From the NCBI GenBank assembly GCA_947475735.1, contig CANJLQ010000014.1, positions 51,751 through 115,750 on the forward strand: a stretch of DNA of 64,000 bases, given 5' to 3'. A model generated the notes under the pieces. That model was given only the letters and a program-made list of their open reading frames with translations. It had not been told where the DNA came from and did no database searches. Below are positions 2,643-64,000 of the stretch, piece after piece. Position numbers and translations under genes: made by a program. The DNA comes from Caulobacteraceae bacterium (lineage in GTDB: Bacteria; Pseudomonadota; Alphaproteobacteria; Caulobacterales; Caulobacteraceae). Within the stretch, counting starts at the first letter, position 1. The number at the start of each line of letters is the position of its first letter.

Positions 2643-4859
2643 TCACAGACGCAGCGAAAGCGACAGGCCGACGTTGCGGCCCGGCTGGGTGTAGGCGTCG
2701 ACCACCGCCGAGGTGTTGGCCACCCCGCGCACGTCGCTCCACCAGCTGTAGGTCTCGTCGAACAGGTTGAAGACGCCGACGCGGGCGGTGACCTGCTCGG
2801 TCACGTTCCAGTATCCGGTCACATCGACCAGCCGGAAGCTGTCGCCGACGTAGCAGCCGTTGTTCGGCACGGCGTTGAAACAGGCCAGCCCATCAGTGTC
2901 GCGCGCCTTCTTGGCGTCCGACCAGGTGACGATGACCTCGGCCCCGAACCGCCCCTGCGGATCGTCCCAGCCCAGACCGCCGACCAGCTTGATGGGGTCG
3001 ATGGAGGGCAGGGCCGTGGTCGCGCCGGCGGTCGTCTGCTCGCCGTCGGCCCAGGCGCCGGACAGGTTCAGCCGCCAGCCGTTGTCCCAGTCGATGCGCG
3101 CCCGGCTCTCCAGCCCCTTCACCTCCACGTCGGTGAAGTTGACGAACTGGAACACGGCCGGGTTCTGCGGCGTGAAGGCGCCGGAGACCACCTGCTGGCT
3201 GATGAAGTTCTCATAGTCCGACTGGAAGGCGACCAACTGGACGGCCATCGCCCCGCCAGCGAAATCGATATCCCTCAGACGCAGGCCCGCCTCGATGCTG
3301 CGGCTCGTCTCGGGCTCCAGGTCCGGGTTGGGGATGGAGACGTAGCCCGACGGCGCGTTGGAGAAGCCGTTGTTCACCTGGCTCGGCGTCGGCGCCTTGA
3401 AGCCCTCGGCCCAGTTGGCGAACAGCTGGAAGGTCGGGGTCGCCTGCCAGACCACGCCCAGCTTGGGCGAGATGCGGCTGTCCGACTGGTCCGCGCGCGC
3501 GCCGACATACAGCGGATCGGCGTCGGTCGAGAGCTCATAGGCGTCGTAGCGCAGGGCCGGGATGATCTTCAGCCGGTCGTCCAGCAAGGCGATCTCATCC
3601 TGCACGAAGACGCCCGCCAGGGTGTAGTCGGTGATCGGGAACGGGCTGGTCGGGAAGGTCTCTCCGAACGGCGGCACCGTGCCGTCGCGCACGCCCTGCT
3701 GGCGCGTCTCGGACCAGTCGCCGCCGAAGGTCAGGCGATGCGCGACCCCGACCAGGCTCAGGGTGGTCCGGGCGTCGGCGGCGAGGCCAAAGACCCGGTT
3801 GTCGAAGGTGTTGTCGCGCGTGCGGTCCACCGCCGGCGTGCGGTCCTCGAAGGTGAACTGCCGCGTCTCGGCCTCCTGCCAGTAGGCGGCGATCTGGGCG
3901 CGCTCCAGGCCGAAGACGTCGGTCCCGCGCCAGTCCAGGCTGACCCGATCGCGCGTCGTCTCATCGTTCGCCGTCAGGTTCAGCACCGTCGCCGTGCGCC
4001 CGCTCAGCACATCGGCGAACACCTCGCTGTCATAGTGGTCATACGTCAGCCGCAGCGCATGGCCCGGCGCGACGTCCCAGACGATCTTGCCCAAGACGGC
4101 GTTGGACTGGATGTCCTGGGGGTTGGCCGTGGTCCGCAGCGGCCCGACCACGTCGTTGTCGCCTCTCGTTTCCGTCTCCTGGGCGTCCCGGCGGGTGTAG
4201 GCCAGCAGACCCGACCACGCCCCGGCCCGGCCGGCGAGCGCCAGGCCCTCGGTCCAGCTCTCGTCGGCGGAGTTGTAAGCCAGGCGGCCCCTTGCACCGA
4301 AATCGCGCCCGCCCGGCAGCAGGTCGGCGGGGTCCTTGGTCGTGAAGCTGACCGCGCCCGCCACTCCGTCCGAGCCATAAAGCGCCGAGGCCGGACCACG
4401 CAGGATCTCGACCGAGCGCATCAGGTCCAGATCGGAATAGCCGCCGCGGCCCACGCTCTGGGCACCGAAGGTGAAGCCGTCGGGGCTGCGCACGCCGTCC
4501 ACGACGATCAGAACCCGGTCACCGCCCAGGCCCCGGATGGTGAAGCCCTCATTGCCCGCCCGGCCGGTGGTGCCCAAGGCCGCGCCGAAGCGCGCTGGCT
4601 GGCTGACGACGCTGACGCCGGGCTCATAACGGACCAGGTCCTTGATGTCGGTGAACAGCAGCCGCTCGATCTGCTCAGCGGTGAACACGGTGACCGTGGC
4701 CGGTGCTTCATCCACGCGGGTCTCGCTGCGCGTCGCCACGACCGTGACGGGCGGCAGTTGGGTCGCGTCGCCCGGATCGCCCTCGCCCGGCTCGGCCAGA
4801 GTCGGCAGGGCCAGCCCGAGGGCCAGAACGGACGTGGACAAGGCGAGGAGGGGACGCAT
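2643..4859 (-). CDS. TonB-dependent outer-membrane receptor
   Basis: Signal peptide MRPLLALSTSVLALGLALPTLA. Plug-domain motifs (VTVFTAEQIE..DIKDLVRYEPGVSV, FTIRGLGGDRVLIVVDG) and a long beta-barrel ending in the aromatic-terminal pattern ..GLSLSLRL. Start at the internal ATG at 4859. Confidence 0.9.
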   Translation of the reverse strand: MRPLLALSTSVLALGLALPTLAEPGEGDPGDATQLPPVTVVATRSETRVDEAPATVTVFTAEQIERLLFTDIKDLVRYEPGVSVVSQPARFGAALGTTGRAGNEGFTIRGLGGDRVLIVVDGVRSPDGFTFGAQSVGRGGYSDLDLMRSVEILRGPASALYGSDGVAGAVSFTTKDPADLLPGGRDFGARGRLAYNSADESWTEGLALAGRAGAWSGLLAYTRRDAQETETRGDNDVVGPLRTTANPQDIQSNAVLGKIVWDVAPGHALRLTYDHYDSEVFADVLSGRTATVLNLTANDETTRDRVSLDWRGTDVFGLERAQIAAYWQEAETRQFTFEDRTPAVDRTRDNTFDNRVFGLAADARTTLSLVGVAHRLTFGGDWSETRQQGVRDGTVPPFGETFPTSPFPITDYTLAGVFVQDEIALLDDRLKIIPALRYDAYELSTDADPLYVGARADQSDSRISPKLGVVWQATPTFQLFANWAEGFKAPTPSQVNNGFSNAPSGYVSIPNPDLEPETSRSIEAGLRLRDIDFAGGAMAVQLVAFQSDYENFISQQVVSGAFTPQNPAVFQFVNFTDVEVKGLESRARIDWDNGWRLNLSGAWADGEQTTAGATTALPSIDPIKLVGGLGWDDPQGRFGAEVIVTWSDAKKARDTDGLACFNAVPNNGCYVGDSFRLVDVTGYWNVTEQVTARVGVFNLFDETYSWWSDVRGVANTSAVVDAYTQPGRNVGLSLSLRL

Positions 4860-4889
4860 GACGAGGGCTCCGCTTGAGGACGGCGGACC

Positions 4890-4908
4890 AATAATGAGAA
4901 TGCTTCTG
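4890..4908. promoter_or_regulatory. Fur-box-like sequence upstream of the TonB-dependent receptor
   Basis: AATAATGAGAATGCTTCTG matches 13/19 positions of GATAATGATAATCATTATC by my alignment. Lies 31-49 nt upstream of the receptor ATG (4859, minus strand), in the gap shared with the divergent Fe(3+) ABC operon. Confidence 0.35.
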
Positions 4909-5169
4909 CAATTCAATCTCAATTAGCGGGCGAGCTGGTTTTCTCAAGTCGTGTACCGGGAGTCCGATGTCGACCCAGAAGAGACCGGCCCGCGTCAGCT
5001 GCACGGCTTGACCGACGCCGAACGGCATCGCCGGGAGCATCGGTGACAGGCAGGCCTGCGGCGAAGAAGTCGCGCACGCGCCATCAGTGTTGCGACTGCT
5101 TCGCAAGTTCACTATACCGAAGCTGCATCATCATGGCCGACCTGCGGCCCCAGTCCCGGAACCTTTACC

Positions 5170-10070: not shown

Positions 10071-10175
10071 GGGGTGCTTCCTCTATGGAACCACTGCCTA
10101 CTGTATATAACCGAACGGTTAAACGCAACCCTGTCACACTCTTCACCCAGGCGCCCCAATCCCGCCCCAATCCGC

Positions 10176-10202
10176 TACAAATGTAACGCTACATATGTAG
10201 CG
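10176..10202. promoter_or_regulatory. Two adjacent BlaI/MecI-type operators (TACA-N2-TGTA dyads)
   Basis: TACAAATGTA at 10176-10185, and the perfect 16-bp palindrome CGCTACATATGTAGCG at 10187-10202, which ends 9 nt before the blaI-like ATG (10212). TACA/TGTA dyads are the known BlaI/MecI operator core. Confidence 0.6.
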
Positions 10203-51074: not shown

Positions 51075-51151
51075 GCGTCCTTAGCTCAGTTGGTTAGAGC
51101 ATCTGACTTTTAATCAGAGGGTCCTCGGTTCGAGCCCGAGAGGACGTACCA
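51075..51151 (+). tRNA. tRNA-Lys (anticodon UUU)
   Basis: Hand-folded cloverleaf. Acceptor GCGTCCT/AGGACGT, D-arm GCTC-AGTTGGTTA-GAGC, anticodon arm TCTGA-CTTTTAA-TCAGA, variable GGGTC, T-arm CTCGG-TTCGAGC-CCGAG, discriminator A and encoded CCA. Confidence 0.93.
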
Positions 51152-53468: not shown

Positions 53469-55094
53469 TCAGGCGGCGCGTCGATGCGAGGACTTGGGAG
53501 CGACCTTTTCAGCGCCCGGCTCCAGAGCCAGGGCGGCGTTCATGGCCATGCGCAGGCGTTCCGGCTTGATCGGCTTTTCCACCACGGCGGCCATGCCGAT
53601 CGACAGATAGTGTTTGGCGTCGTCCGGGTCGGCGTTGGCCGTCAGGGCGACGATGGGGATGGCGCTTTCCGGCCCGGTCAGGGCGCGGATGGCCTGGGTT
53701 GCCTGGACGCCGTCCATGCGGGGCATCTTGATGTCCATCAGGATCAGATCGAACGGCCGGGCCTGGACGGCCTCCAGCGCCTCCAGGCCATCCTCGGCGG
53801 TCTCGGAGGTGCAGCCGAACATCTCGCACAGGGCCTGGGCCACGACGCGGTTGGTGGCGTTGTCGTCGACGATCAGGACGTGCGGCGTCGCCTGGAGTTC
53901 CCAGTCGGGCAGGGACGAGACGTTGGTTGCCGCCTCAGCCGGGGCCATCGACAAGGGCGCGGTCAGGTCGAAGGCGAAGGTCGCCCCGCGGCCCTCGTTG
54001 TTTTCGGCCCAGATCCGTCCTTCCAGGCGCTCGATGATCTGGCGACAGATCGACAGCCCCAGCCCGGCCCCGTCGGGCCCCGAGCCGTGGACGAAGGGTT
54101 CGAAAATGGCGTCCACGCGATCGGCGTCCACGCCCGGGCCATCGTCGCGCACGCGCGCCTGCAAGTGCACCTTGCCGTTGTCCGACCAGGCCCGCAGGCT
54201 GGCCTCGACGACGCCGTTCCGGGCGAACTTCAGCGCATTGCCGATCAGGTTGTTGAACACCTGCTTCAGGCGGACGCCGTCGATCTCGGCGGCCAGTTCG
54301 GTGTCGCCTTCATAGCCGACCATCAGCCGGACCTGATCCTGTGATGCGCGCGGCGTCCACAGCTGCTCGATGTCGTCCATCAGCGACCGGAGCGGCGTCG
54401 ATGCCGGGTTCATCTCCAGCTCGCCGGCCTCGGCCCGCGACAGGTCCAGCGCGTCCTGGAGGATGCGCAGCAGGGTCTCGGAACTGTCGACGATGGTCTG
54501 GACGTGGGCGTGGGCGGCGTCGTTCAGCGGCTGGCGGCGCAGCAGTTCGGCGACGGCGAGCACGCCGTTCATGGGCGTGCGCAGTTCGTGGCTCATGATG
54601 GCCAGGAACTGGCTCTTGGCACGGGCGGAAGCGAGGGCCTGGGTGCGGCTGTCGGTAAGCTCGCGGGCCTGGTCGGCGAGTTCCTGATTGCGGTTGCGCT
54701 GCTCGGCGTTGACGGCCTGGAGCAGGCTGACGGCGGTACCGACGCCGCGATACCGCCCGTCGCGCGTGACGATGAAGCCCCGCATCAGGGTGCCGGGACC
54801 GCTCTTGACCAGGATGTCGCAGAAGGCGTCGATGCGGACGCCCGCGTCCACCACGGCGGGCTCGGTGTCCATGATCATGGACACCGGTCGATTGGCATAT
54901 AGCGCATGGCCGAAGGGACCGGCGATCTTTAGCAGGAAGGCATTGCGTTCGACGAGACCGATCGGACGGCCATCCTCGACGACCGGGATCACCAAAGTAT
55001 CGGGCTCAGCCTGGAACCGCGCGAAAATCTGGCCGGCGTTCGCCGAGGGGGCGACGGGCTCGGCACGTTCCGTCAGGATCTCGATGGTCGGCAT
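53469..55094 (-). CDS. Cytoplasmic hybrid sensor histidine kinase/response regulator with N-terminal CBS-like module
   Basis: CBS-like N-terminus (LVIPVVEDGRPIGLVERNAFL), H-box SQFLAIMSHELRTPMNGV, HATPase G-boxes, and REC (VLIVDDNATNR..DIKMPRMDG). No Hpt domain. Start at ATG 55094. Confidence 0.85.
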   Translation of the reverse strand: MPTIEILTERAEPVAPSANAGQIFARFQAEPDTLVIPVVEDGRPIGLVERNAFLLKIAGPFGHALYANRPVSMIMDTEPAVVDAGVRIDAFCDILVKSGPGTLMRGFIVTRDGRYRGVGTAVSLLQAVNAEQRNRNQELADQARELTDSRTQALASARAKSQFLAIMSHELRTPMNGVLAVAELLRRQPLNDAAHAHVQTIVDSSETLLRILQDALDLSRAEAGELEMNPASTPLRSLMDDIEQLWTPRASQDQVRLMVGYEGDTELAAEIDGVRLKQVFNNLIGNALKFARNGVVEASLRAWSDNGKVHLQARVRDDGPGVDADRVDAIFEPFVHGSGPDGAGLGLSICRQIIERLEGRIWAENNEGRGATFAFDLTAPLSMAPAEAATNVSSLPDWELQATPHVLIVDDNATNRVVAQALCEMFGCTSETAEDGLEALEAVQARPFDLILMDIKMPRMDGVQATQAIRALTGPESAIPIVALTANADPDDAKHYLSIGMAAVVEKPIKPERLRMAMNAALALEPGAEKVAPKSSHRRAA

Positions 55095-55245
55095 ACTGGG
55101 CCGAAACTCCCTGCTACTGTAGGACCTTAGACCACGACCGTTTTCAGAAAGGTTAAGTCGGCCCGCAGGGAATCCGAGCCCTTTGCCGCCTGTCACAAAA
55201 TCCTAGCGAACGAGGTTCAGCCTGGGTCAACGAGGGAGGTCACCA

Positions 55246-56013
55246 ATGATCCGTCTTCTGGCTCGACTGAGCGCGCCGGTGCTGGCCGCAGCCACCCTCG
55301 GCATGGCCACAGCGGCGCAGGCCCAGGATCGCCCCACCGTCGTGCTGGTGCACGGGGCCTGGGCCGATGGTTCCTGCTGGAGCGAGGTGATTCCCCATCT
55401 GCTGAGCGCCGGTCTGAAGGTCGTCGCGGTCCAGAACCCGCTGTCCAGCCTCGAAGCCGACGCGGCGACCGTCACGCGCGCCATCGAGGACCAGTCCGGT
55501 GACGTCGTTCTGGTCGGGCATTCCTACGGCGGGGTGGTGATCTCCGAGGCCGGAAACCATACGAAAGTCCAGTCCCTGGTCTATGTGGCGGCCTTCGCGC
55601 CCGGGCCGAACCAGTCGGTGAATACGATCCTGTCGGCCTTTCCTCAGCCTGAGTGGTTCAGCAGCCTGCACGCGGACGCTGGCGGCTGGGTCACCTGGCC
55701 GGCCGAGCCGATGGCGCGCTGGTTCTCGGCCGGACTGCCTGCGGAGCAGCAGGCGGTCCTGGCGGCGACCCAGCACCCGACCTTCTTCGGCGTCAATGAC
55801 AACGCGATCGGGGCCACGGCCGCATGGTCGACCAAGCCCACCCACTATGTGATCGCCGACGGGGACCAGATCATCCCCGCGCCGCTCCAGACCCATTTCG
55901 CGACCACGATGAACGCGACGGTGACCCACGCCGACGGGGGTCACCTGATCATGCTGGCCCAGCCCCGGGTCGTGGCGGACGCCATCATCGCAGCGGTCGA
56001 GGCAGCGGACTGA
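55246..56013 (+). CDS. Secreted alpha/beta hydrolase (esterase-like)
   Basis: Signal peptide ending AAQAQ, VVLVHGAW, and the canonical nucleophile elbow GHSYGG. Confidence 0.8.
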   Translation: MIRLLARLSAPVLAAATLGMATAAQAQDRPTVVLVHGAWADGSCWSEVIPHLLSAGLKVVAVQNPLSSLEADAATVTRAIEDQSGDVVLVGHSYGGVVISEAGNHTKVQSLVYVAAFAPGPNQSVNTILSAFPQPEWFSSLHADAGGWVTWPAEPMARWFSAGLPAEQQAVLAATQHPTFFGVNDNAIGATAAWSTKPTHYVIADGDQIIPAPLQTHFATTMNATVTHADGGHLIMLAQPRVVADAIIAAVEAAD

Positions 56014-56020
56014 GGCCTGT

Positions 56021-56440
56021 TCAGCCGCCGTTGGCCCGGTGGGCGATGGAGGCGGCGTCGGCCCAGATCTTTCCGCCGACCCACAGGCCGATGGAGGGGG
56101 TGACGTCGGTCACCTCCACCTCGGCATACAGGTCCGAGGTGATATAGGGGTCGCCCTTCATCACGCTCCACGCCTCGTCCACGTCGCCGGCGCGGACCAG
56201 GAAGTAGGAGCCGCTGAGCGCGGTCTCGCCGGGGCGGCGCATCGGCCCGGCGACGACGTAGCGGCGCCAGTTCGCCTCGACGTGGGCCAGATGACCCTCC
56301 AGACGCTCGACCCGGCGGGCCGGGGCGTCGGGTCCGTCCTTGCACACGAACAGGAACAGCGGCGTCTGATCCTTGGGAACATGAGGCGGGCTGTCGTCGG
56401 GCTGGGGGGCGATCGGCTCTTGCATCGGTCGGGAATCCAT
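56021..56440 (-). CDS. YciI-family (dimeric alpha/beta-barrel) protein
   Basis: LFLFVCKDGPDA...R...HL.H......VVAGP..., DPY pattern. Start ATG 56440 (alternative 56425). Confidence 0.7.
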   Translation of the reverse strand: MDSRPMQEPIAPQPDDSPPHVPKDQTPLFLFVCKDGPDAPARRVERLEGHLAHVEANWRRYVVAGPMRRPGETALSGSYFLVRAGDVDEAWSVMKGDPYITSDLYAEVEVTDVTPSIGLWVGGKIWADAASIAHRANGG

Positions 56441-56447
56441 CGGCAAA

Positions 56448-56465
56448 TGGTATAGACTTATACCA
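56448..56465. promoter_or_regulatory. Perfect palindrome TGGTATA-GACT-TATACCA in the 41-bp YciI/MFS divergent gap (site 1 of 2)
   Basis: Read directly at 56448-56465. 16/18 identical, with an identical AAA 5-prime flank, to 61374-61391. Either an operator or a bidirectional extended -10 (TGnTATAGA / TGnTATAAG). Confidence 0.6.
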
Positions 56466-56481
56466 ACTGATCGGGACGGGC

Positions 56482-57795
56482 ATGCAAGCACAGTCTGGGG
56501 CGAAAGCCGGGTACGGCGAGTTCAAGCTGGGCTGGCCCGTGGTGCTGTCGGCCATGCTGGGCATCGGGCTCGGCCTGTCGCCCCTGCCGTTCTACACCAT
56601 CGGCATCCTGGCGCCCGAGCTGGCCAAGGAGTTCGGCTGGGGCTTCGCCGAGATCCTGGGCGGCCTGCCGATCATGACCTTCGCCGTGCTGATCGCCAGC
56701 CCCCTGGTCGGGCTGCTGGCGGACCGGATCGGCGTGCGAACGGTCGCGCTCGTGTCGCTGCTGCTGTTCGGCCTGGCCTTCGCGGGGTTCGCGGCCAACA
56801 CCGGCGACATCCGCATGTTCTATGCGACCTGGGGGATCATGGCCCTGGTCGGGGCGGGGACCCTGCCGGTGACCTGGACCCGGGCGGTGAACAACCGGTT
56901 CGACATCCACAAGGGCCTGGCGCTGGGTCTGTCCCTGGTCGGGACCGGCCTGTTCGGCTTCGCGTGCAAGCCCTACACCGCCTGGCTGGTCGAGGAATTC
57001 GGCTGGCGGGTGGCCTATCTGGGCGTCGCCGCCCTGCCGCTCTTGGTCGCCCTGCCGATCGCCTTCATCTTCTTCCACGACGTGGGCGGGCGCACGGTGA
57101 CGGCGGCCGAGCGGCGCGTGGCGGACGCCGAACGCAAGGCCGTGACGCCTGGCCTCAGCTTTGGGCAGGCGCTGAAAGACTGGCGCTTCTGGGTGCTGGC
57201 GGTGGCCTTCGTGCCGATCAGCTTCGCGGTCGGCGGGCCGATCCCGAACATCGAGAACATCCTTCGGTCCAACGGCTTCGAGGCGGGGGACGTGGTCACA
57301 CTGGCGTCGCTGATCGGCCTGTCCGTGATCGGAGGGCGGTTGTTGGGCGGCTGGCTGATCGACCGCATCTGGGCGCCCGGCGTCGCCTTCGTGCTGTTGA
57401 GCGCGCCGGCCGTGGCCTGCTGGCTGCTGGCTCAGGGGACGACCGACCCGGTCATCGCGGGCCTGTCGATCGTGCTGATCGGCTTCGCGGCGGGGGTCGA
57501 ATACGACCTTATGGCCTTCATGGTGGCGCGCTATTTCGGGCTGAAGAGCTACGGCGGCATCTATGGAGCGCTTTACGGCTTCTTCGCCCTGGGCGCGGGG
57601 ATCGGGCCGGTGATCTTCGGCCAGTATTTCGACCGGACCGGCAGCTATGAGACCATCCTGCTATATTCGGCCGTGGGGCTGGTGGCGGGGGCGGCGCTGC
57701 TCTTGCTGATGGGCAAGTATCGGACCTTCGGCGGCGACAGGACCGAGGCCGTCGCAGCGGCGGAGCGGACGGCGGACCCGGACTTCGCGGCCTGA
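56482..57795 (+). CDS. MFS transporter
   Basis: 437 aa, 12 TM, D-R-x-G-x-R-like loop (LADRIGVRT). Confidence 0.85.
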   Translation: MQAQSGAKAGYGEFKLGWPVVLSAMLGIGLGLSPLPFYTIGILAPELAKEFGWGFAEILGGLPIMTFAVLIASPLVGLLADRIGVRTVALVSLLLFGLAFAGFAANTGDIRMFYATWGIMALVGAGTLPVTWTRAVNNRFDIHKGLALGLSLVGTGLFGFACKPYTAWLVEEFGWRVAYLGVAALPLLVALPIAFIFFHDVGGRTVTAAERRVADAERKAVTPGLSFGQALKDWRFWVLAVAFVPISFAVGGPIPNIENILRSNGFEAGDVVTLASLIGLSVIGGRLLGGWLIDRIWAPGVAFVLLSAPAVACWLLAQGTTDPVIAGLSIVLIGFAAGVEYDLMAFMVARYFGLKSYGGIYGALYGFFALGAGIGPVIFGQYFDRTGSYETILLYSAVGLVAGAALLLLMGKYRTFGGDRTEAVAAAERTADPDFAA

Positions 57796-57819
57796 GCGGC
57801 GGTTGGGCCCGAAGCGTGT

Positions 57820-58054
57820 CATCACAGCGAGCACAGCGAGCACAGCGGGTTCACAGCGGACATGGCGGGACCGAGCGGACGGTCAGATCGCCGACCGCGA
57901 AACCGTGAACACGGAAAGAATGCGGCTGCGCCGCGATGATTGATCGACGCCTGGCGTCGATCCTGAAAACGCGAAAGGTGGGCGTCAAAGGCCGATGTGG
58001 ACCTGGGCGCGGTCCCGCCGTGTCCGCTGTGAACCCACTGTGGTCGCCGTGATG
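57820..58054. repeat. 235-bp structured intergenic element with 45-54-nt imperfect terminal inverted repeats (MITE/REP-like)
   Basis: The left arm 57820-57873 pairs with the right arm 58010-58054. The core 27 nt (57847-57873 versus 58010-58036) is 26/27 complementary. The extended arms are 41/45 complementary, with one extra 9-nt unit (AGCACAGCG) on the left. Nested perfect palindrome GATCGACGCC-T-GGCGTCGATC at 57942-57962. Confidence 0.7.
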
Positions 58055-58058
58055 AACC

Positions 58059-59474
58059 TTACTGGCCCAATCCGTCGCTGGCGTGTGCGTCTGCCCACGC
58101 TTCGAAATCGCTCCATCTTCGGTGGGCGAGAAGCAGGCTGACCGCGCGGCCGTGGGTGGCGGCGAGATCGGCGGGTCGGTCGATCCGGTGAGCCGGCTCG
58201 CGGCGATGCCAGGGGGCGAACAGCCTCTCCCATGACGCGATGCGGAAGGCGCGGACGAGGTGCGCCCCGTCCCACTCAGGTTCAAGCGAAGGCACAGCAT
58301 CTGGCAGGCCGAGGACGCGACCGGGATCGGCGGGCCCGCCGGTCAGGGCGCAGGCGAGGACGGCACCGGCGCCGACGCCGGCGACCTCGGCGTCCGACAG
58401 GTTCAGCGCATCGAGGGCGGCGCGGACCGAGCCGGGCCAGTCGATGGGGCCGGCCCAGCCCCCGGCGGAAAGGCCGTGGCCGGGCAGGTCCAGCGCGATG
58501 ACGGGGCGGTCCCGTGGCGCGGTCAGGTCGGCGGCGCAGCCTCCGGCGTCATGAAGCATGACGAGGGGGCGGCCGGGGCCACCCGACAGACGCTGAAAGG
58601 CCAGTCGCTCCTCGCCCAGCCAGACGAAGCCCTCCCCGATGCCGTCCAGGGCGATCGTCCCCGGATGGGCGGCCAGATGCTCGGCCGCACCCGCATGAAG
58701 CGCCGGTGCGTCGGCGAAGATCGTGCCGCGACCCGCCAGACCCGGGCGGTCCAGATGAGGGGTCAGGATATCCGCGGCGGTGCAGGCGATCAGGGCGGAT
58801 GCCGGCAGTCGGTCGGCGACGGCCTCGGCGCGGAAGGTGAAGGCGGCGTGGTAGACGGGGCGGTAGGCGTCGCCGGTCGCCAGCAGGTCCATCGCGTTGG
58901 CGTGGATGTGCTCAGGGCTGGAGACGGCCATCGCCATCCGCTCGGCCGGGTCGGTGGAATGCCAGGGGAAGAAGACGGTCTGGGCCTCCATCCGCGCCCA
59001 CAGCCAGGCCATGTGGGAGCCGTCCCAGCGGGGCTCGAACGGCGGGAGGTAGTCGGCGAGGAAGCGGGCGCGCTCGGCCTCGGTCCAGGCGGGCAGGCCG
59101 TCGCAGACCAGGGCGGCGGTGCTGTGCGGGAACAGGGTGGCGAAGGTCGCGGCGGTCGCGGCCCCGGTGTGGAAGCCGTACAGGCCGACGCGTGCGAGGC
59201 CGAGCGTCTCGGTGAGGCGATGCAGCGCGCGGGCGAAGTCGGCGCTGTCGGGATCGGCGATCGGCAGGGGGGTGGAGGTGCCTGCGCCGGGCGTGTCGGG
59301 AGCGAGGGCGGTCAGGCCGCGCGCGGCGATCGCCTGACAGACCGTCTCGACGGCGCGGGAAGACTGGGGCGAGCCGTGGACGACGAAGACCGCCGGGCCG
59401 CGACCGTAGCGGCGGATAAGGACGCGGCGGCCGTCGACGACGACGAAGGCGCGCTCTCCGCCTGGCCGGGTCAC
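58059..59474 (-). CDS. Internally duplicated alpha/beta-hydrolase-fold protein (two tandem modules), apparently without a canonical nucleophile
   Basis: Two HG-type modules (VFVVHGSPQSS..DTPGAGTS.. and LVMLHDAGG..DLPGHGLS..). Each is followed by the repeat EP.WDG.H...F.PWH. The elbows read GFHTG and GVGAG. Start at GTG 59474 with a GTGA overlap to the upstream stop; the longer ORF extension is Arg-rich shadow. Confidence 0.65.
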   Translation of the reverse strand: MTRPGGERAFVVVDGRRVLIRRYGRGPAVFVVHGSPQSSRAVETVCQAIAARGLTALAPDTPGAGTSTPLPIADPDSADFARALHRLTETLGLARVGLYGFHTGAATAATFATLFPHSTAALVCDGLPAWTEAERARFLADYLPPFEPRWDGSHMAWLWARMEAQTVFFPWHSTDPAERMAMAVSSPEHIHANAMDLLATGDAYRPVYHAAFTFRAEAVADRLPASALIACTAADILTPHLDRPGLAGRGTIFADAPALHAGAAEHLAAHPGTIALDGIGEGFVWLGEERLAFQRLSGGPGRPLVMLHDAGGCAADLTAPRDRPVIALDLPGHGLSAGGWAGPIDWPGSVRAALDALNLSDAEVAGVGAGAVLACALTGGPADPGRVLGLPDAVPSLEPEWDGAHLVRAFRIASWERLFAPWHRREPAHRIDRPADLAATHGRAVSLLLAHRRWSDFEAWADAHASDGLGQ

Positions 59475-60469
59475 ACCCGGACCAGGGTCTTGCCGACATT
59501 CTCGCCGCGCATGAGACGCTCCAGCTGGGCCCCGGCGGAGTCGAGGCCCTGACCGATGTCCTCGGCGATGGTCAGGCGGCCGTTCTTGACCCAGGGCTCG
59601 GCCAGCGCGGTCCACTCGGCCCAGCGCGGATAGAAGTCGTAGACGACCAGGCCGAAGACGGCGGCGCGCTTGCCGACCAGGGGGCCGATGGCGGTGACGG
59701 CCGGACCGGCATCGGCGTGGTAGTGGTCGGCGAGGCCGCACAGGACGACGCGGCCGTAGAGCTTGAGATTTCGGATGCCGACCGCCAGCTGGCCGGCGCC
59801 GACGTTCTCGAAATGGATGGTCGAGCCGGGCGCGACGGCGGTGGCTACCTGCGCCTCCCAGTCCTCAGCGCGGTAGTCGATGCAGGCCTCGAAGCCATAG
59901 CGGTCGACGACGAGGGCGCATTTCTCCGGCCCGCCCGCGATGCCGACGGCGCGGCCGCCGAGATTGCGGGCGATCTGGCCCGCGACCCCGCCGACCGTGC
60001 CCGCCGCCGCGTTGACGGTCAGAAGGTCACCCGCGCCGGTCTTCGCCAACTGGGTCATGCCGGCCCATGCTGTGAGGCCTGGCATGCCCAGCACGCTGAG
60101 ATGCAGCGACGGCGCGATTTCGGTCGAGACCTTGCGGGCGGTGTCAGAGCGGACCCAGGCCAGGTCGGTCCAGCCGGCCTCGACCACCACCCGGTCGCCT
60201 GGCGCGAAGGCGGGGTCATGGCTGGCTTCGACCTCGGCGACGCAGAAGCCGGGCAGGGGCTCGCCGGGGGCGGGGGCGGGCTCGCCCATGTGACGGCCCC
60301 GGATGCGCGCGCCGATGTAGGGGTCGAGCGAAAGGAACAGGGGGCGGACCCTCAGCCAGCCTTCGCCTTCCGGCGGGGTGCGGTCGCGGGTCACGACGGT
60401 GAAATCGTCGGCGACGGGGACGGCCTCGACGGGCCGGGTGAGGACGACTTCTCGGGCTCGATCGCTCAT
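59471..60469 (-). CDS. NADP-dependent MDR-superfamily oxidoreductase (YncB/CurA/alkenal-enone reductase type)
   Basis: LSLDPY.., GMPGLTAWAG, and the NADP loop AAGTVGGVAGQIAR. ATGA overlap with the upstream VOC gene. Confidence 0.82.
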   Translation of the reverse strand: MSDRAREVVLTRPVEAVPVADDFTVVTRDRTPPEGEGWLRVRPLFLSLDPYIGARIRGRHMGEPAPAPGEPLPGFCVAEVEASHDPAFAPGDRVVVEAGWTDLAWVRSDTARKVSTEIAPSLHLSVLGMPGLTAWAGMTQLAKTGAGDLLTVNAAAGTVGGVAGQIARNLGGRAVGIAGGPEKCALVVDRYGFEACIDYRAEDWEAQVATAVAPGSTIHFENVGAGQLAVGIRNLKLYGRVVLCGLADHYHADAGPAVTAIGPLVGKRAAVFGLVVYDFYPRWAEWTALAEPWVKNGRLTIAEDIGQGLDSAGAQLERLMRGENVGKTLVRV

Positions 60470-61344
60470 GCTTCCACGACCTCGACCAGGGTTCCGTCGG
60501 GAGCGCGCAGGGTCCCCGCGCGCTTGCCGCCATAGATGGTGCCGTCGCGGGCGACGGGTGGGGCGATCCAACCCTTCAGCGCGTCGAAGTCGGGGTGGCG
60601 GAAGGTGGTGATGGCAATGCCAGGGGGCAGGGCGCCGGGCTCGGTGGGGCGCGGCGTCGTCGCCTCCGGATACTGGTCCAGCTCCAGGAAGCAGTCGCGG
60701 CCGTGGACCATGGTGGCCAGGGTGTGTTTGGTGTCGGCGGGCAGGTCGAAGGCCGCGTTGATCATGGTGTAGACGAGATCCATCGAGCGGCCGGCCGACA
60801 GCTTCAGCTCCGTCTCGAACCAGTCCAGCGAGGCCTGAAGGTCGGAGCAGGCCAGGACGATGATGAACAGCTTGTCGATCACGCTGTCCGCGCGGGGCAG
60901 GTCGTAGGCGGGCAGGTTGTCCCGGATCTGGGTCAGATAGACGATCTCCTGATCCGGCCCCTTCACCTGCATGGGGAAGATGGCGGGCAGGCCGTCCAGT
61001 TCCTTCGGCGGGCCGATGATCTGGAAGGGGGACCGCTCCATGCGGGCGTTCACGGCGTGGGTGTCCTGGGTGCAGATCTCGATGGCCGCCCAGCCGTAGG
61101 TGCGGAGTGGCCTGTAGTCGGGAGGCGTCGCGCCTTCCACGAAGCGCAGGAAGACGTCCGCGTCGGAGGCCGGGCGGCAGACCACGAACGCACGCCCGGC
61201 CGAGGCGGGGCAGCCCCACCCGCCGGCGAGGTCGGAGGGGACGCGGCCGCGCTCCACCACCTCATAGTCCAGCCATTCGACATAGCGGGCCGCGGTCGCC
61301 TTCGGGTCGGCGACGGTCAGAGTGGCGGCGCGCAGGAGTTCCAT
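60466..61344 (-). CDS. Two-module VOC (glyoxalase/extradiol-dioxygenase-fold) protein, unknown substrate
   Basis: Two repeats of the beta-alpha-beta-beta-beta style N-termini (ATLTVADPKATAARYVEWLDYEVV and LFIIVLACSDLQASLDWFETELKL). Assignment is by pattern only. Confidence 0.5.
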   Translation of the reverse strand: MELLRAATLTVADPKATAARYVEWLDYEVVERGRVPSDLAGGWGCPASAGRAFVVCRPASDADVFLRFVEGATPPDYRPLRTYGWAAIEICTQDTHAVNARMERSPFQIIGPPKELDGLPAIFPMQVKGPDQEIVYLTQIRDNLPAYDLPRADSVIDKLFIIVLACSDLQASLDWFETELKLSAGRSMDLVYTMINAAFDLPADTKHTLATMVHGRDCFLELDQYPEATTPRPTEPGALPPGIAITTFRHPDFDALKGWIAPPVARDGTIYGGKRAGTLRAPDGTLVEVVEA

Positions 61345-61373
61345 GAGGTCGCGATTCCGGGCTCGGTTCGAAA

Positions 61374-61391
61374 TGGTATAGATTTATATCA
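61374..61391. promoter_or_regulatory. Palindrome TGGTATA-GATT-TATATCA in the VOC/DUF1330 divergent gap (site 2 of 2)
   Basis: Read directly at 61374-61391. Same motif as 56448-56465. Roughly centred in the 79-bp gap (30 nt from the VOC ATG, 33 nt from the DUF1330 GTG). Confidence 0.6.
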
Positions 61392-61423
61392 TTTGAGCGC
61401 GCTAGGGTGGGCATAGCAAGGGG

Positions 61424-61732
61424 GTGCGCGTGGCTGCCTATATGATCGTCCTGGCCGATATCGCGGATCGAGACGCCTTCATCGGCGGCTACGGCAAGGC
61501 GGCCGCGGCCCTGATCGAACAGCACGGCGGGCGCTATCTGGTGCGGGCACCGGGCGTCCAGCTGCTAGAGGGCGACTGGGGCGACGGATCGTCCGCCGTC
61601 ATCTCCGAATGGCCCGACATGACGGCGCTCCGCGCCTTCTGGGACAGCCCCGAATACGCCGAGATCAAAAAGCTGCGCGACGGCATCGCCGATTGCCGCG
61701 TCTGGGCCATCGAGGCCCCCAACCGACCCTGA
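61424..61732 (+). CDS. DUF1330 domain protein (dimeric alpha/beta-barrel fold)
   Basis: AAYMIVLADIADRDAF..Y...A...IEQHGGRYLVR......LEGDW......VISEWPDM.ALRAFWDSPEY is the typical DUF1330 pattern. Confidence 0.8.
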   Translation: MRVAAYMIVLADIADRDAFIGGYGKAAAALIEQHGGRYLVRAPGVQLLEGDWGDGSSAVISEWPDMTALRAFWDSPEYAEIKKLRDGIADCRVWAIEAPNRP

Positions 61733-61751: not shown

Positions 61752-62645
61752 ATGATCCGCACCCTGACCGCCCTGGCCGCGCTCGCCGCCGCCGCCCTGC
61801 CGATCTCTGCGAGCGCGCAGAGCATCGACCTGTCGACCCCCGCCGGCGCGATCGCGGCGAACCGCAAGGTCCAGTGCTCGACCGTGGACGGCGAGCCGGT
61901 GGTCTATCACTGGTCCGGCCGGGTGTTCGCCCGTTCGCCAGGCGAGCCGGACCGCCATATCTTCAACGTCGAGGGCATGAACGTGCGCCAGTGCGGCACG
62001 GTCACCGACCCCGTACGAGGCACCGGCTATCGCCTCGTCTCGCGCGAGCTGATGCTCTACCTCGACCCGCGTACCAACCAGATCCTGCGCAGCTGGACCA
62101 ACCCCGTGACCGATCAGGTCGTCGAAGTGGTCCATGTCGCCAACGACCCGGTCAACTCGCGCCCGACCTATGAGCGCAACGCGGACGGCTCGCCCTTCAC
62201 GTTCAGTGGCCGGGTCAATCAGGGCAAGGTGTTCCTGAACTTCGAGGCCCCTTTGTTCTATGTGAACCCTCTGGGCGGCGACTATCAGGAGTATGTCGGC
62301 AACCAGTACCACGCGATGGAGATCTTCGACTTCTCCATGCAGGAGGCCGACCTGATCGACGCCTCGCGGCCCCGCGCCGACCCGGCCATCGCCTGGGTGC
62401 GGATGTCGCCCTGGCTGCCGTGGATGCGGATGGGCGGGCGGCCCGGCGGCCTGGTGTTCAACGCGGTCGGCCAGACCATGTCGAACGGCATCGACGGCCT
62501 GCCGCAGGTCCTGAGGGACGAGATCTCGGCCAACTACCCCGACTATGTCGCCCCGCCGCCCCTGACCGATACGCGGCCCAACGAGACCAGCTGGACCTAT
62601 TTCAAGAAGATCTTCGACGCCGAGCGAGCGGCGGCGGCGCAGTAG
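61752..62645 (+). CDS. Secreted DUF1838-family protein
   Basis: Signal peptide MIRTLTALAALAAAALPISASA. VVYHWSGRVF..., FNVEGMNVRQC pattern recalled from DUF1838. Confidence 0.65.
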   Translation: MIRTLTALAALAAAALPISASAQSIDLSTPAGAIAANRKVQCSTVDGEPVVYHWSGRVFARSPGEPDRHIFNVEGMNVRQCGTVTDPVRGTGYRLVSRELMLYLDPRTNQILRSWTNPVTDQVVEVVHVANDPVNSRPTYERNADGSPFTFSGRVNQGKVFLNFEAPLFYVNPLGGDYQEYVGNQYHAMEIFDFSMQEADLIDASRPRADPAIAWVRMSPWLPWMRMGGRPGGLVFNAVGQTMSNGIDGLPQVLRDEISANYPDYVAPPPLTDTRPNETSWTYFKKIFDAERAAAAQ

Positions 62646-63135: not shown

Positions 63136-64000
63136 TCAGGCGTAGGCGCCCAGCAACTTGATCTCCTTGGCGGTGGCGGCGCCGCGGACGGCGTCATCGA
63201 CGTCGGGGCGATCGGCGTAACAGGTGCCGTCGCGCCACATGGCGTGCATCACGACGGCGAGCTTTCGGGCCACCGCCACGACCGCCTTCTTGTGGCAGCG
63301 TTTGGCGATCTTCTCACCCCAGGTCTTGAGCGCGGTCTTGCCTTTGTAGCGGGTCAGCATGGCGCTGGCGGCCTCGTAGAGCGCGCGCCGGACGTCGGGA
63401 TCGCCCGCCTTGCTGATGCGGCCCTGGATGTCGATCGAGGTGCCCGACTGCCATCGCTTCGAGGTCAGGCCGAAGTAGGCGCCGACGTCGCGCGACCGTT
63501 TGAACCGGGTCGGGTCATCGACGGCGGTAAGGAAGGTCATGGCCGTCACCGGGCCGACGCCGGGGATGGCCATGAAGCGCCGGCACACCTCGTCCTGGGC
63601 CACCCAGCGGACGACCAGATCGTGCAGCTTGAGGTATTCCTTCCACAGCGCGGCCCGGGCCGTCAGCATGCAGTCCATCAGCTCGGCGGTCAGGGCGTCG
63701 TCGTCGCAGGCGTCGCGCACGGCCCGGTCGAACGCCCCGCGTCCCACCTTGCCGAGCTTGATCCCGAAGCTCTTCAGCGAATGACGGATGCTGTTCTCCA
63801 GATCGAGGAATTTGCGCTTCAGGTTGCGGCGCTGGATCAACAGCAACCGCAGCCGGTAGGCCGCGTCGCTCTTCACATAAGCCTGTTTGAACCAGCCGGT
63901 CCGCATGATGTGCGCCAGGCCGAGCGCGTCGTTGGCGTCGGTCTTGTTGCGCTGGGCCGACATCGCCGCGCGGACGTTGCGGGTCTCCAGGCACACGGCC
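63136..64000 (-). mobile_element. IS110-family transposase gene, C-terminal about 288 codons (N-terminus beyond window end)
   Basis: Motifs KTDANDA, FMAIPGVGPVTAMTFLTAVDDPTRF, YFGLTSKRWQSGTSIDIQGRISKAGDPDVRRALYEAA and VAVARKLAVVMHAMWRDG are typical of the IS110/IS1111 DEDD transposase plus Transposase_20 domains. The ORF is open at 64000. Confidence 0.88.

What the first reader, a model, noticed from the sequence alone, without database searches (positions are those of the whole stretch)
56448..61391. The same 18-bp palindrome occupies two divergent promoter gaps 4.9 kb apart
Seen in sequence:
- AAATGGTATAGACTTATACCA lies at 56445-56465, and AAATGGTATAGATTTATATCA at 61371-61391.
- Site 1 is a perfect TGGTATA-N4-TATACCA palindrome. 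Site 2 differs at 2 of 18 positions.
- I found no other copy while reading the window. In DNA this GC-rich, an AT-rich 18-mer recurring by chance is very unlikely.
- Both copies sit exactly in divergent intergenic gaps: YciI<->MFS (a 41-bp gap) and VOC-operon<->DUF1330-operon (a 79-bp gap).

Inference:
- One dimeric transcription factor may control all four transcription units.
- Alternatively, the palindrome is a bidirectional extended -10 promoter, reading TGGTATAGA on one strand and TGGTATAAG or TGATATAAA on the other.
- Both could be true, with the operator overlapping the promoters.

No regulator gene lies inside the block, so the factor would act in trans.
Basis: partly seen in the sequence, partly recalled or inferred. 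Interest (0 to 1): 0.72.

Follow-up and report, generated by a model that had tools for sequence, protein, structure and literature searches.

The report
Two operators of one GntR regulon
The two matching AT-rich palindromes are real, and are best explained as binding sites for a single GntR/HutC-type repressor encoded elsewhere in the genome; this is an ordinary kind of bacterial switch, but it controls a large, conserved breakdown pathway whose function is still unknown.

Summary
TGGTATAGACTTATACCA (56448-56465) and TGGTATAGATTTATATCA (61374-61391) are the only two copies in 64 kb. A matrix scan scores them 38 and 49 bits, against -2.9 for the next best hit. Each sits in a short divergent gap: YciI<>MFS, and VOC-reductase-hydrolase<>DUF1330-DUF1838.

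Orthologous gaps in Brevundimonas, Phenylobacterium and other Caulobacterales keep the dyad while the central 4 bp and the flanks drift. The consensus is aAATGRTMTA-N4-TAKAYCATTt.

A genome-wide pattern scan found the motif in at least 52 GC-rich loci, almost all alphaproteobacterial. Sites lie almost always in promoter gaps, next to a recurring set of about 25 gene families. These include amidohydrolases, PuuE-like ring-openers, aconitase/ICL-like enzymes, a CoA pathway, TonB receptors, HapK, DUF1330, DUF1838 and YciI.

The only recurrent transcription factor is a GntR+UTRA (HutC-subfamily) protein, which carries its own site. In one Brevundimonas MAG it lies in the same cluster as DUF1330<>VOC and MFS.

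Verdict: this is an operator of an uncharacterised HutC-type repressor. It is a new member of a known kind, with atypically wide half-site spacing. The effector and the pathway remain unknown.

The parts
56445..56468 (.). Operator 1: AAATGGTATAGACTTATACCAACT. The core dyad TGGTATA-N4-TATACCA is at 56448-56465. It lies in the YciI<>MFS divergent gap.
   Evidence: Matrix score 37.6 bits. Conserved in the orthologous gaps of L003, L103, L076, L100, L120 and L070.
61371..61394 (.). Operator 2: AAATGGTATAGATTTATATCATTT. The core is at 61374-61391. It lies in the VOC-operon<>DUF1330-operon divergent gap.
   Evidence: Matrix score 49.4 bits. Conserved in L003, L005, L007, L070, L095, L097, L103, L126, L140 and L146.
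56021..56425 (-). YciI-family protein (134 aa). It is transcribed leftward from operator 1.
   Evidence: Pfam YCII 2.2e-08. Public gene call of 134 aa. The start codon is conserved in L003.
56482..57795 (+). MFS transporter (437 aa). It is transcribed rightward from operator 1, and its ATG is 16 bp from the dyad.
   Evidence: Pfam MFS_1 3e-33. Orthologues carry a site upstream in 7 other loci. In L070 and L170 this gene lies next to CN_hydrolase<>GntR.
60466..61344 (-). VOC/glyoxalase-like protein (292 aa). It is the first gene of the leftward operon from operator 2.
   Evidence: Homologues are named VOC family protein. Public gene calls. Site upstream in orthologues.
59471..60469 (-). NADPH-dependent enone reductase-like oxidoreductase (332 aa). 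It is the second gene of that operon, with a 4-bp overlap to the VOC gene.
   Evidence: Pfam ADH_N_2 plus ADH_zinc_N. NCBIfam match to curcumin reductase is below cutoff.
58059..59474 (-). Alpha/beta hydrolase (471 aa). It is the third gene of that operon, with a 4-bp overlap to the reductase gene.
   Evidence: Pfam Abhydrolase_1. Public gene call of 471 aa.
61430..61732 (+). DUF1330 protein (100 aa). It is the first gene rightward from operator 2.
   Evidence: Pfam DUF1330 1.1e-23. Public gene call of 100 aa.
61752..62645 (+). DUF1838 protein with a signal-peptide-like N-terminus (297 aa). It is the second gene rightward from operator 2.
   Evidence: Pfam DUF1838 1.2e-72. DUF1838 genes carry their own site in Niveispirillum, Azospirillum and Rhizobium loci.

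Best explanation
Each palindrome is the operator of a homodimeric GntR-family, HutC-subfamily (winged-helix plus UTRA domain) transcription factor encoded outside this 64-kb window. One monomer reads each half-site, aAATGRTMTA. The half-site centres are 11 bp apart, about one helical turn. The dyads sit 16-47 bp from the four start codons, in gaps of 56 and 85 bp. A bound dimer must therefore cover the core promoter or start region of both divergent units at once, and so represses YciI, MFS, VOC-reductase-hydrolase and DUF1330-DUF1838 together. By analogy with NagR, DasR and HutC, a small-molecule effector binds the UTRA domain and releases the repressor. That effector is most likely the substrate, or an early intermediate, of the catabolic pathway these genes belong to. 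The two sites are part of a much larger regulon: at least 9 operator-bearing gaps and about 25 gene families in relatives. Its enzymology suggests breakdown of a nitrogen-containing cyclic amide or imide compound down to C5-C6 branched dicarboxylates, pyruvate and acetyl-CoA. What is shown: the motif, its conservation, its promoter-gap location, its regulon, and its linkage to the GntR/UTRA gene. What is inferred: physical binding, repression rather than activation, effector release, and the nature of the pathway.
For: (1) The sites are unique and highly significant in the window.
(2) Phylogenetic footprint: both orthologous gaps keep the dyad in relatives whose VOC protein is 70-93% identical, while the central N4 and the flanks change. 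Examples are GACT/AGTT/GGCT at site 1, and different flanks in the Brevundimonas-like and Phenylobacterium-like groups.
(3) The matrix from 93 non-redundant sites shows symmetric, nearly invariant half-sites and an uninformative spacer of 0.2-0.4 bit.
Of these, 52 are at GC>=0.55, where my arithmetic gives a chance expectation of about 3e-7 per 4-Mb genome. They are almost all Alphaproteobacteria.
(5) Of 85 sites in the GC-rich loci, 42 lie in divergent gaps, 35 in tandem upstream gaps, and 2 in convergent gaps. Two lie 'inside' ORFs only because my ORF starts were over-extended, and the remaining 4 lie at the edge of a locus. The median distance from site centre to start codon is 39.5 bp.
(6) The same gene families recur beside sites.
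(7) The only recurrent transcription factor is a GntR (4e-21) plus UTRA (3e-36) protein. A six-frame HMM search finds it in 14 of 52 GC-rich loci and 4 of 17 mid-GC loci, against 1 of 48 AT-rich loci and 0 of 33 viral control loci.
(8) Its own upstream region, or that of its operon, carries a site or a recognisably degenerate one in nearly all of the 12 cases examined; the L051 and L070 matches have only one good half-site (also L160, L164, L165, L168 and L172).
(9) Direct linkage to the window's genes. In Brevundimonas sp. MAG GCA_019636155.1 the order is HapK operon <site> methyltransferase | DUF1330 <site> VOC | MFS-CN_hydrolase <> GntR [site] Aldedh-isochorismatase. In Phenylobacterium sp. 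Root700 the order is DUF1330 <site> VOC-reductase-hydrolase, MFS <site>, CN_hydrolase <> GntR.
(10) The nearest solved relatives of the regulator are the HutC-type repressors DasR and YvoA/NagR. The half-site TGGTATA equals the left half of the B. subtilis YvoA operator TGGTATAGATCA (PMC2853113), and the NanR/NagQ repeat units TGGTATAW/TGGTATT (PMC4494728).
Against: No regulator gene of this type is in the window, and I could not check the rest of the source genome. Its presence there is inferred from relatives and from the intact state of the sites.
The motif does not fit the HutC-subfamily core GTMTAKAC: GT and AC are 10 nt apart instead of 4. The assignment therefore rests on genomic linkage, not on motif similarity.
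In Caulobacterales the regulator's own site is weaker (TAGACCA or TAGGTCA right half), and in L170 the CN_hydrolase<>GntR gap has only a 3-mismatch match.
The flanks and core of many of the 93 sites were fixed by the search pattern, so the matrix partly reflects ascertainment.
There are no binding, expression or start-site data.
Confidence: 0.8

Rival explanations
1. The palindrome is simply a pair of back-to-back promoter -10 elements (extended -10 TGnTATAnn reading inward, or CTATAY-like reading outward) recognised by RNA polymerase, with no dedicated factor.
For: The half-sites contain TATA preceded by TG. The gaps are so short that the promoters must overlap the dyad. An outward reading nTATAY resembles the alphaproteobacterial -10 CTATAT (my own knowledge).
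Against: Only 2 of the roughly 55 genes' worth of promoters in the window carry the motif. For the inward extended -10 reading, the position equivalent to -7 T is T in only 26% of 93 sites and the -8 position is A in only 46%. By contrast, the outer AAA/TTT flanks and the G2/C17 positions, which a -10 element does not need, are 88-100% conserved. The motif occurs in one-directional gaps, for example between the GntR stop codon and the next gene. It co-occurs with one specific gene set and one regulator. A simple sigma-70 scan finds no promoter in either gap.
Confidence: 0.05
2. The dyad is bound by a transcription factor of another family (for example LysR, TetR, MarR or Rrf2), and the GntR/UTRA gene is merely one more regulated member of the regulon.
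For: The motif spacing is atypical for HutC-type proteins. A LysR gene lies within a few genes of sites in the two Niveispirillum loci. The regulator was not found in the window.
Against: No other transcription factor family recurs next to sites. The LysR gene is seen only in Niveispirillum and is not adjacent to a site there, and one LacI-like fragment appears in a single locus. The GntR/UTRA gene abuts a site in 18 loci across several orders. The even-length dyad does not fit the LysR T-N11-A box. The half-site TGGTATA is a classic GntR-family recognition unit.
Confidence: 0.1
3. The two copies are a dispersed repeat (REP/MITE-like), or an RNA hairpin such as a terminator or 5'-UTR structure, rather than a protein-binding DNA site.
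For: Any palindrome can fold. The gap transcripts fold at -9.6 to -13.8 kcal/mol for gap 1, with z about -2.
Against: Similarity ends at about 24 bp. There are only two copies in 64 kb, and none in coding or non-promoter DNA. There is no Rfam match, and no T-tract or terminator-like site. Conservation is sequence-specific rather than pairing-specific, and the stem is a weak 7-bp A/T-rich helix. The fold z-scores for gap 2 are -0.8 to -1.7.
Confidence: 0.02
4. The same GntR/HutC factor binds, but acts as an activator, or as a dual regulator, of one or more of the four units rather than a pure repressor.
For: The direction of regulation was not tested. Site 2 is 38-47 bp from the start codons, which could be compatible with a class II-like position if the leaders are very short.
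Against: Characterised HutC-subfamily proteins such as NagR, DasR and HutC are repressors released by effectors (PMC2853113; PDB names). Site 1 ends 16 bp from the MFS ATG. In Phenylobacterium-type gaps the dyad ends about 6 nt from the DUF1330 Shine-Dalgarno sequence, which places it over the start site or -10 region.
Confidence: 0.1

Closest known systems
NagR (YvoA) of Bacillus subtilis and DasR of Streptomyces coelicolor with their dre operators (GntR/HutC subfamily)
   Same: The candidate regulator has the same two-domain architecture, GntR winged helix plus UTRA, and these are its nearest solved relatives. The operator is palindromic and lies in promoter regions of catabolic and transport genes. 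The half-site TGGTAT/ATACCA matches the outer halves of TGGTATAGATCA and TGGTCTAGACCA (PMC2853113).
   Different: The two halves are pushed 6 bp apart: TGGTAT-ANNNNT-ATACCA, so GT..AC is 10 nt instead of 4. The flanks AAA/TTT are conserved. The regulon has no GlcNAc or chitin genes, and the effector is unknown. No NCBIfam equivalog model reaches its cutoff; the best is PhnF at 118 bits against a cutoff of 157.
NagQ (HutC subfamily; alphaproteobacteria and Xanthomonadales) and NanR (FadR subfamily; E. coli)
   Same: The recognition unit is practically identical: TGGTATT for NagQ and TGGTATAW for NanR (PMC4494728).
   Different: Those proteins bind direct repeats, whereas here the units form an inverted repeat with a 4-bp spacer. 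The regulated genes are unrelated to GlcNAc or sialic acid use.
HutC histidine-utilisation repressor and PhnF phosphonate regulator
   Same: Same subfamily. Both are autoregulated, effector-released repressors of a multi-operon catabolic regulon. The NCBIfam hits to both are weak and below cutoff.
   Different: Below the equivalog cutoffs. There are no hut or phn genes in the regulon. The operator consensus is different.
Comparative-genomics (RegPrecise-type) regulon reconstructions for GntR-family factors (Suvorova et al. 2015, PMC4494728)
   Same: The logic and the typical features match: a single site near the middle of a divergon spacer, and an autoregulated factor gene in a divergon with a structural operon.
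   Different: I found no matching motif or orthologous group in that paper's text or in its stored supplements. RegPrecise itself could not be queried.

Membership tests
GntR-family operator/repressor system | Palindromic operator that fits the general consensus Ny-GT-Nx-AC-Ny | tested here: met
   TGGTATA-N4-TATACCA contains GT...AC in dyad symmetry. The symmetry holds over 93 sites. The consensus is as stated in PMC4494728.
GntR-family, HutC subfamily | Subfamily-typical operator core GTMTAKAC (GT and AC 4 nt apart) | tested here: not met
   GT and AC are 10 nt apart and the central 4 nt are not conserved. GTATAGAC in site 1 is not conserved in orthologues. The paper lists other HutC exceptions.
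GntR-family, HutC subfamily | The regulator has an N-terminal GntR winged helix and a C-terminal UTRA effector domain | tested here: met
   For the candidate regulator in relatives: Pfam GntR 4e-21 and UTRA 3.2e-36. Precomputed Pfam on 120 homologues agrees. The nearest PDB relatives are DasR and YvoA.
GntR-family, HutC subfamily | The regulator gene is present in the same genome as the operators | not testable with these tools
   It is absent from the 64-kb window (tblastn; HMM). The rest of the source genome could not be read. It is present in Brevundimonas relatives.
GntR-family, HutC subfamily | Autoregulation: a site lies in the regulator's own upstream region, typically in a divergon with a structural operon | tested here: met
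   A site or a recognisably degenerate one lies upstream of nearly all of the 12 regulator genes or their operons; the L051 and L070 matches have only one good half-site. The CN_hydrolase<>GntR gaps of L160, L164, L165, L168 and L172 also carry one. Enrichment is 18 of 69 loci against 1 of 81 controls.
GntR-family, HutC subfamily | Sites lie in the promoter regions of regulated operons | tested here: met
   77 of 85 sites lie in divergent or tandem upstream gaps, with a median of 39.5 bp to the start codon.
GntR-family, HutC subfamily | Specific protein-DNA binding that is relieved by a small-molecule effector | not testable with these tools
   This needs EMSA, footprinting or ITC with purified protein and candidate effectors.
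Sigma-70 extended -10 promoter element | TGn followed by a TATAAT-like hexamer with conserved -11 A and -7 T | tested here: not met
   The -7-equivalent position is T in 26% of sites. The consensus scan finds no promoter in either gap.
Dispersed repeat (REP/MITE) or structured RNA | Many copies including non-promoter DNA, similarity extending beyond the stem, or a match to an RNA family | tested here: not met
   There are two copies only, both in promoter gaps. Similarity is limited to about 24 bp. There is no Rfam hit.

The most novel reading that the evidence does not exclude
The dyad defines a previously undescribed regulon that is widespread in Alphaproteobacteria, with at least 9 operator-bearing gaps and about 25 gene families. 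It would encode an unknown catabolic pathway for a nitrogen-containing ring compound. One possibility is maleimide-type fragments of bilins or tetrapyrroles. The gene content points that way: TonB receptors; CpeT-like and other barrel proteins; HapK, DUF1330 and YciI small alpha+beta barrels; three PuuE-like ring-opening amidohydrolases; three kinds of amidase; aconitase-, PrpD- and methylisocitrate-lyase-like enzymes; and an itaconate/citramalyl-CoA-type module. The regulator would also be a HutC-type protein that docks on half-sites one full helical turn apart, a geometry not described for this subfamily.
Probability: 0.2. Interest if true: 0.7.

Novelty: new member of a known kind. Interest (0 to 1): 0.4.

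Why it matters
On its own this is a textbook arrangement: one repressor, one palindromic operator shared by divergent promoters. Its value is as a handle.

The motif is sharp enough (about 40-50 bits) to delimit a whole regulon in hundreds of alphaproteobacterial genomes. That regulon ties together several families with no known function (DUF1330, DUF1838, YciI-like, HapK-like, a 120-aa and a 148-aa protein) with recognisable ring-opening amidohydrolases, amidases and a C5-dicarboxylate CoA pathway. None of these enzymes reaches an NCBIfam equivalog cutoff, so the substrate is open.

Finding the effector of the GntR/UTRA protein would name the pathway and give those DUFs a biochemical context.

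The +6-bp half-site spacing is also a useful data point for how HutC-type dimers can dock on DNA.

Tried and rejected
- Looked for further or weaker copies in the window with mismatch searches, half-site searches and a 24-bp matrix. None was found.
- Looked for the regulator in the window by tblastn and HMM. None was found.
- Tried to locate the regulator in the source organism by tracing close homologues to their samples. All came from other genomes or samples, so its presence in the source genome stays inferred.
- Cluster look-up of two window proteins gave no accession for the source genome.
- The sigma-70 and terminator scan of both gaps found nothing.
- The Rfam scan of the whole window found only a tRNA.
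- Literature searches for the motif, and for the DUF combination, found no description of this regulon. The supplements of the GntR-motif paper hold no matching group.
- NCBIfam and PDB sequence searches of the regulon enzymes gave only sub-threshold or generic names, and DUF1838 has no solved relative.
- Considered reading site 1 as a canonical HutC core (GTATAGAC). Rejected, because the central bases are not conserved in orthologues.
- Considered LysR (adjacent in Niveispirillum). Rejected as lineage-specific and incompatible with an even-length dyad.
- Fur/Zur/Irr, FNR/FixK, LexA and CtrA boxes were compared from memory only and do not fit the half-site or the spacing.
- A viral-contig scan served as a chance control: 33 hits, all without an adjacent GntR gene.

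Full report
OBSERVATION. The two sequences are present exactly as described: TGGTATAGACTTATACCA at 56448-56465 and TGGTATAGATTTATATCA at 61374-61391, each preceded by AAA. The expected counts from dinucleotide shuffles are 0.01 and 0.07. The heptamer TGGTATA or its complement occurs three times in the window, all inside the two sites. The window is about 69% G+C, and the sites are two of only 16 A/T-rich stretches in it. Alignment of the two gaps shows that similarity stops at about 24 bp.

GENE CONTEXT. Pfam and public gene calls give the following layout:
- an alpha/beta hydrolase at 55246-56013 (+);
- YciI at 56021-56425 (-) <operator 1> MFS at 56482-57795 (+);
- an alpha/beta hydrolase at 58059-59474 (-), an ADH_N_2 enone-reductase-like protein at 59471-60469 (-), and a VOC-like protein at 60466-61344 (-) <operator 2> DUF1330 at 61430-61732 (+) and DUF1838 at 61752-62645 (+);
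- then an IS110-family transposase.
The conserved start at 56425 makes gap 1 56 bp long. Operator 1 ends 16 bp from the MFS ATG and starts 22 bp from the YciI ATG. Operator 2 lies 29 bp from the VOC ATG and 38 bp from the DUF1330 start. With gaps this short, any bound protein must overlap both core promoters or start regions. This last point is inference from geometry.

CONSERVATION. VOC homologues were traced to their contigs. The whole block, DUF1838-DUF1330 <> VOC-reductase(-hydrolase) ... MFS <> YciI, is syntenic in Brevundimonas-like metagenome contigs whose VOC protein is 80-90% identical. Both gaps keep the dyad while the central four bases change: AAATGGTATAAGTTTATACCAACT and AAATGGTATAGATTTATACCATTT in L003. 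Fourteen VOC and nine MFS upstream regions were examined. In more distant groups (Phenylobacterium-like loci; L007 at 71% identity) the flanks are unrelated but the dyad is intact. One locus, L067, shows a decayed left half. Relatives carry a third operator between a HapK-SDR-PuuE-like operon and a methyltransferase operon, immediately beyond DUF1838. Niveispirillum (Rhodospirillales) has TGATATA-N4-TATATCA upstream of HapK<>reductase-YciI, Aldedh<>CN_hydrolase and DUF1838.

GENOME-WIDE SCAN. The pattern WAATGRTATANNNNTATAYCATTW was run against one genome per GTDB species. Forty-eight are in AT-rich genomes, where such a 24-mer is expected by chance; a viral control scan gave 33 such hits. Fifty-two are in loci of at least 55% G+C, where by my arithmetic the expectation is about 3e-7 per 4-Mb genome. 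These are almost exclusively Alphaproteobacteria: Brevundimonas, Phenylobacterium, Caulobacteraceae, Niveispirillum, Azospirillum, Rhizobium, Mesorhizobium, Thalassobaculaceae, Paracoccaceae and others.

I called genes with a GC3-filtered ORF finder that reproduces the public calls for the window, and clustered the proteins. The map of sites against gene clusters shows the same families again and again beside sites:
- the window's families: VOC, reductase, hydrolase, MFS, YciI, DUF1330 and DUF1838;
- HapK, an SDR, PuuE-allantoinase-like proteins, a 409-aa methyltransferase with 120-aa and 161-aa partners, and a GST;
- HpcH/MaoC/acyl-CoA dehydrogenase/two CoA-transferases;
- CN_hydrolase, isochorismatase-like hydrolase, enoyl-CoA hydratase, FAD_binding_4 oxidase and aldehyde dehydrogenase;
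- aconitase-like large and small subunits, a methylisocitrate-lyase-like protein and TonB-dependent receptors.
Of 85 sites, 42 lie in divergent gaps and 35 in tandem upstream gaps. Only two are convergent, four lie at the edge of a locus, and the two 'intragenic' ones are artefacts of my over-extended ORFs. The median distance from site centre to start codon is 39.5 bp.

THE MOTIF. Ninety-three non-redundant sites give aAATGRTMTA-N4-TAKAYCATTt. T1, G2, T6 and A7 and their mirror positions are 99-100% conserved, the outer AAA is 72-93% conserved, and the spacer is uninformative. Part of this is ascertainment, because the pattern fixed many positions. However, sites found independently in loci fetched through proteins show the same flanks and the M/K variants. 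Scanning the window with the matrix gives 49.4 bits for site 2, 37.6 bits for site 1, and -2.9 for the next best position.

THE REGULATOR. One cluster next to sites is a transcription factor with GntR (4e-21) and UTRA (3.2e-36) domains, which places it in the HutC subfamily. A profile built from it, searched against six-frame translations, finds it in 14 of 52 GC-rich and 4 of 17 mid-GC loci. It finds it in only 1 of 48 AT-rich loci and 0 of 33 viral control loci. In nearly all of the 12 loci first examined, its upstream region, or that of its operon, carries a site or a recognisably degenerate one; the L051 and L070 matches have only one good half-site. In Caulobacterales this is a somewhat degenerate TGGTATA-N4-TAGACCA/TAGGTCA in the CN_hydrolase<>GntR divergon.

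Homologues are common and are annotated only as 'GntR family transcriptional regulator'. No NCBIfam equivalog model (PhnF, HutC, TreR and others) reaches its cutoff. The nearest solved structures are DasR and YvoA/NagR. Brevundimonas-type regulator loci hold five sites in 20 kb: ECH<>148-aa, upstream of TonB-CpeT-like, CN_hydrolase<>GntR, GntR->membrane protein-FAD oxidase-Aldedh, and TonB<>isochorismatase.

Two genomes link the regulator physically to the window's genes:
- Brevundimonas sp. MAG GCA_019636155.1 has ...HapK <site> methyltransferase | DUF1330 <site> VOC | MFS-CN_hydrolase <> GntR [site] Aldedh-isochorismatase.
- Phenylobacterium sp. Root700 has DUF1330 <site> VOC-reductase-hydrolase, MFS <site>, CN_hydrolase <> GntR.
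A further genome has DUF1330-MFS <two sites> isochorismatase-PuuE-like x2-GntR-ECH.

The window itself has no homologue of the regulator, and apart from the 56-62.6 kb block it has no orthologues of the regulon. I could not read the rest of the source genome, so the presence of the regulator there is inferred.

MECHANISM. The best-supported mechanism (confidence about 0.8 for the factor, and about 0.75 for repression given the factor) is as follows. A HutC-type GntR dimer binds each dyad, one winged helix per half-site. It occludes the overlapping divergent promoters and is released when an effector binds the UTRA domain, as in NagR, DasR and HutC (established family knowledge; PMC2853113). 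The linkage, conservation and location are shown. Binding, the sign of regulation and the effector are inferred.

COMPARISON WITH THE KNOWN. The half-site TGGTATA is a classic GntR-family unit. The B. subtilis YvoA operator is TGGTATAGATCA and the dre consensus is TGGTCTAGACCA. NanR and NagQ bind repeats of TGGTATAW and TGGTATT (PMC4494728). The arrangement differs, however. HutC-type sites normally have GT and AC 4 nt apart (GTMTAKAC). Here they are 10 nt apart, which amounts to a 6-bp insertion between the canonical halves and puts the half-site centres 11 bp apart. The system therefore passes the general GntR tests (palindrome with GT..AC, promoter location, autoregulated GntR+UTRA gene) but fails the HutC-specific core test. 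It works like a HutC-type repressor/operator and is a new, atypically spaced member of that kind.

RIVALS.
- A factor-less bidirectional extended -10 is contradicted by the conservation pattern: the -7 T equivalent is only 26% T while the outer flanks are conserved. It is also contradicted by the motif's rarity among promoters, by sites in one-directional gaps, and by the failure of a consensus promoter scan. Overlap with real promoters remains likely.
- A different transcription factor family is not excluded, but none recurs.
- Repeat-element and RNA readings fail on copy number, location, extent of similarity, Rfam and weak folding statistics.

WHAT THE REGULON MAY DO (low confidence, inference). 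The gene content includes several ring-opening amidohydrolases (PuuE-like; in other orders hydantoinase/oxoprolinase-like) and three amidase types. It also includes FAD oxidases, aconitase-, PrpD- and methylisocitrate-lyase-like enzymes, and an itaconate/citramalyl-CoA-type module. Together these suggest catabolism of a nitrogen-containing cyclic amide or imide down to branched C5-C6 dicarboxylates and then to pyruvate and acetyl-CoA. TonB receptors, CpeT-like proteins and HapK make bilin- or tetrapyrrole-derived maleimides one speculative candidate. No enzyme reaches an equivalog cutoff, and no paper in the library describes the gene set or the motif.

VERDICT. This is a real, conserved regulatory site. 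It is ordinary in kind and useful as a regulon marker for a pathway of unknown function. Interest 0.4; novelty: new member of a known kind.

Noticed in passing
window 63136-63996 (-), running to the window end: An IS110/IS116-family transposase lies directly after DUF1838. In relatives (L003, L126, L083, L146) that position holds the 161-aa/120-aa/methyltransferase operon and the third operator facing HapK. No remnant of those genes is in the window, so the regulon island appears to have been split or rearranged here.
   Followed up: partly
L054, L160, L164, L165, L172, L075, L094 (CN_hydrolase<>GntR gaps): In Caulobacterales the regulator's own operator is systematically degenerate in one half (TGGTATA-N4-TAGACCA/TAGGTCA/TAGATCA). 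The structural-gene operators are near-perfect. This suggests weaker autoregulation than target repression.
   Followed up: partly
L067 4160-4177 (VOC<>DUF1330 gap of a Phenylobacterium MAG): The orthologous operator has a decayed left half (AGATGTC...TATACCA, 3 mismatches), although the genes are intact. This may be a loss of regulation in that lineage.
   Followed up: no
window 10104-10123 and 10176-10199: Two other A/T-rich stretches lie in GC-rich DNA: TATATAACCGAACGGTTAAA and TACAAATGTAACGCTACATATGTA, the latter containing the palindrome TACATATGTA. They may be operators of other factors. They are unrelated to the motif studied.
   Followed up: no
window 1078-1270: A cluster of A/T-rich stretches lies in the first 2 kb, which is the lowest-GC part of the window (0.62). 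It sits upstream of a TonB-dependent receptor gene (2643-4922, -) that has no copy of the dyad.
   Followed up: no
window 56433-56437 and 61352-61356: A GANTC (CcrM methylation) site lies 7 nt (GAATC) and 14 nt (GATTC) to the left of the two operators. The first is kept in L003 and the second is not, so this is probably chance.
   Followed up: partly
window 51075-51148 (+): A tRNA gene, the only Rfam hit in the window (70.9 bits).
   Followed up: no
window 53469-55196 (-): A hybrid histidine kinase with CBS, HisKA, HATPase and receiver domains lies 1.2 kb left of the regulated block. It carries no dyad and is not conserved next to the block in relatives.
   Followed up: no
L098, L121, L122, L135, L149, L053 (other alphaproteobacterial orders and one gammaproteobacterium): Regulator homologues 30-60% identical, with the same dyad, sit next to hydantoinase/oxoprolinase A/B, aconitase-like subunits, TauD-like dioxygenase and ABC or TRAP transporters instead of the Caulobacterales gene set. 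The operator type appears to be shared by a wider group of lactam/imide-related catabolic regulators.
   Followed up: no
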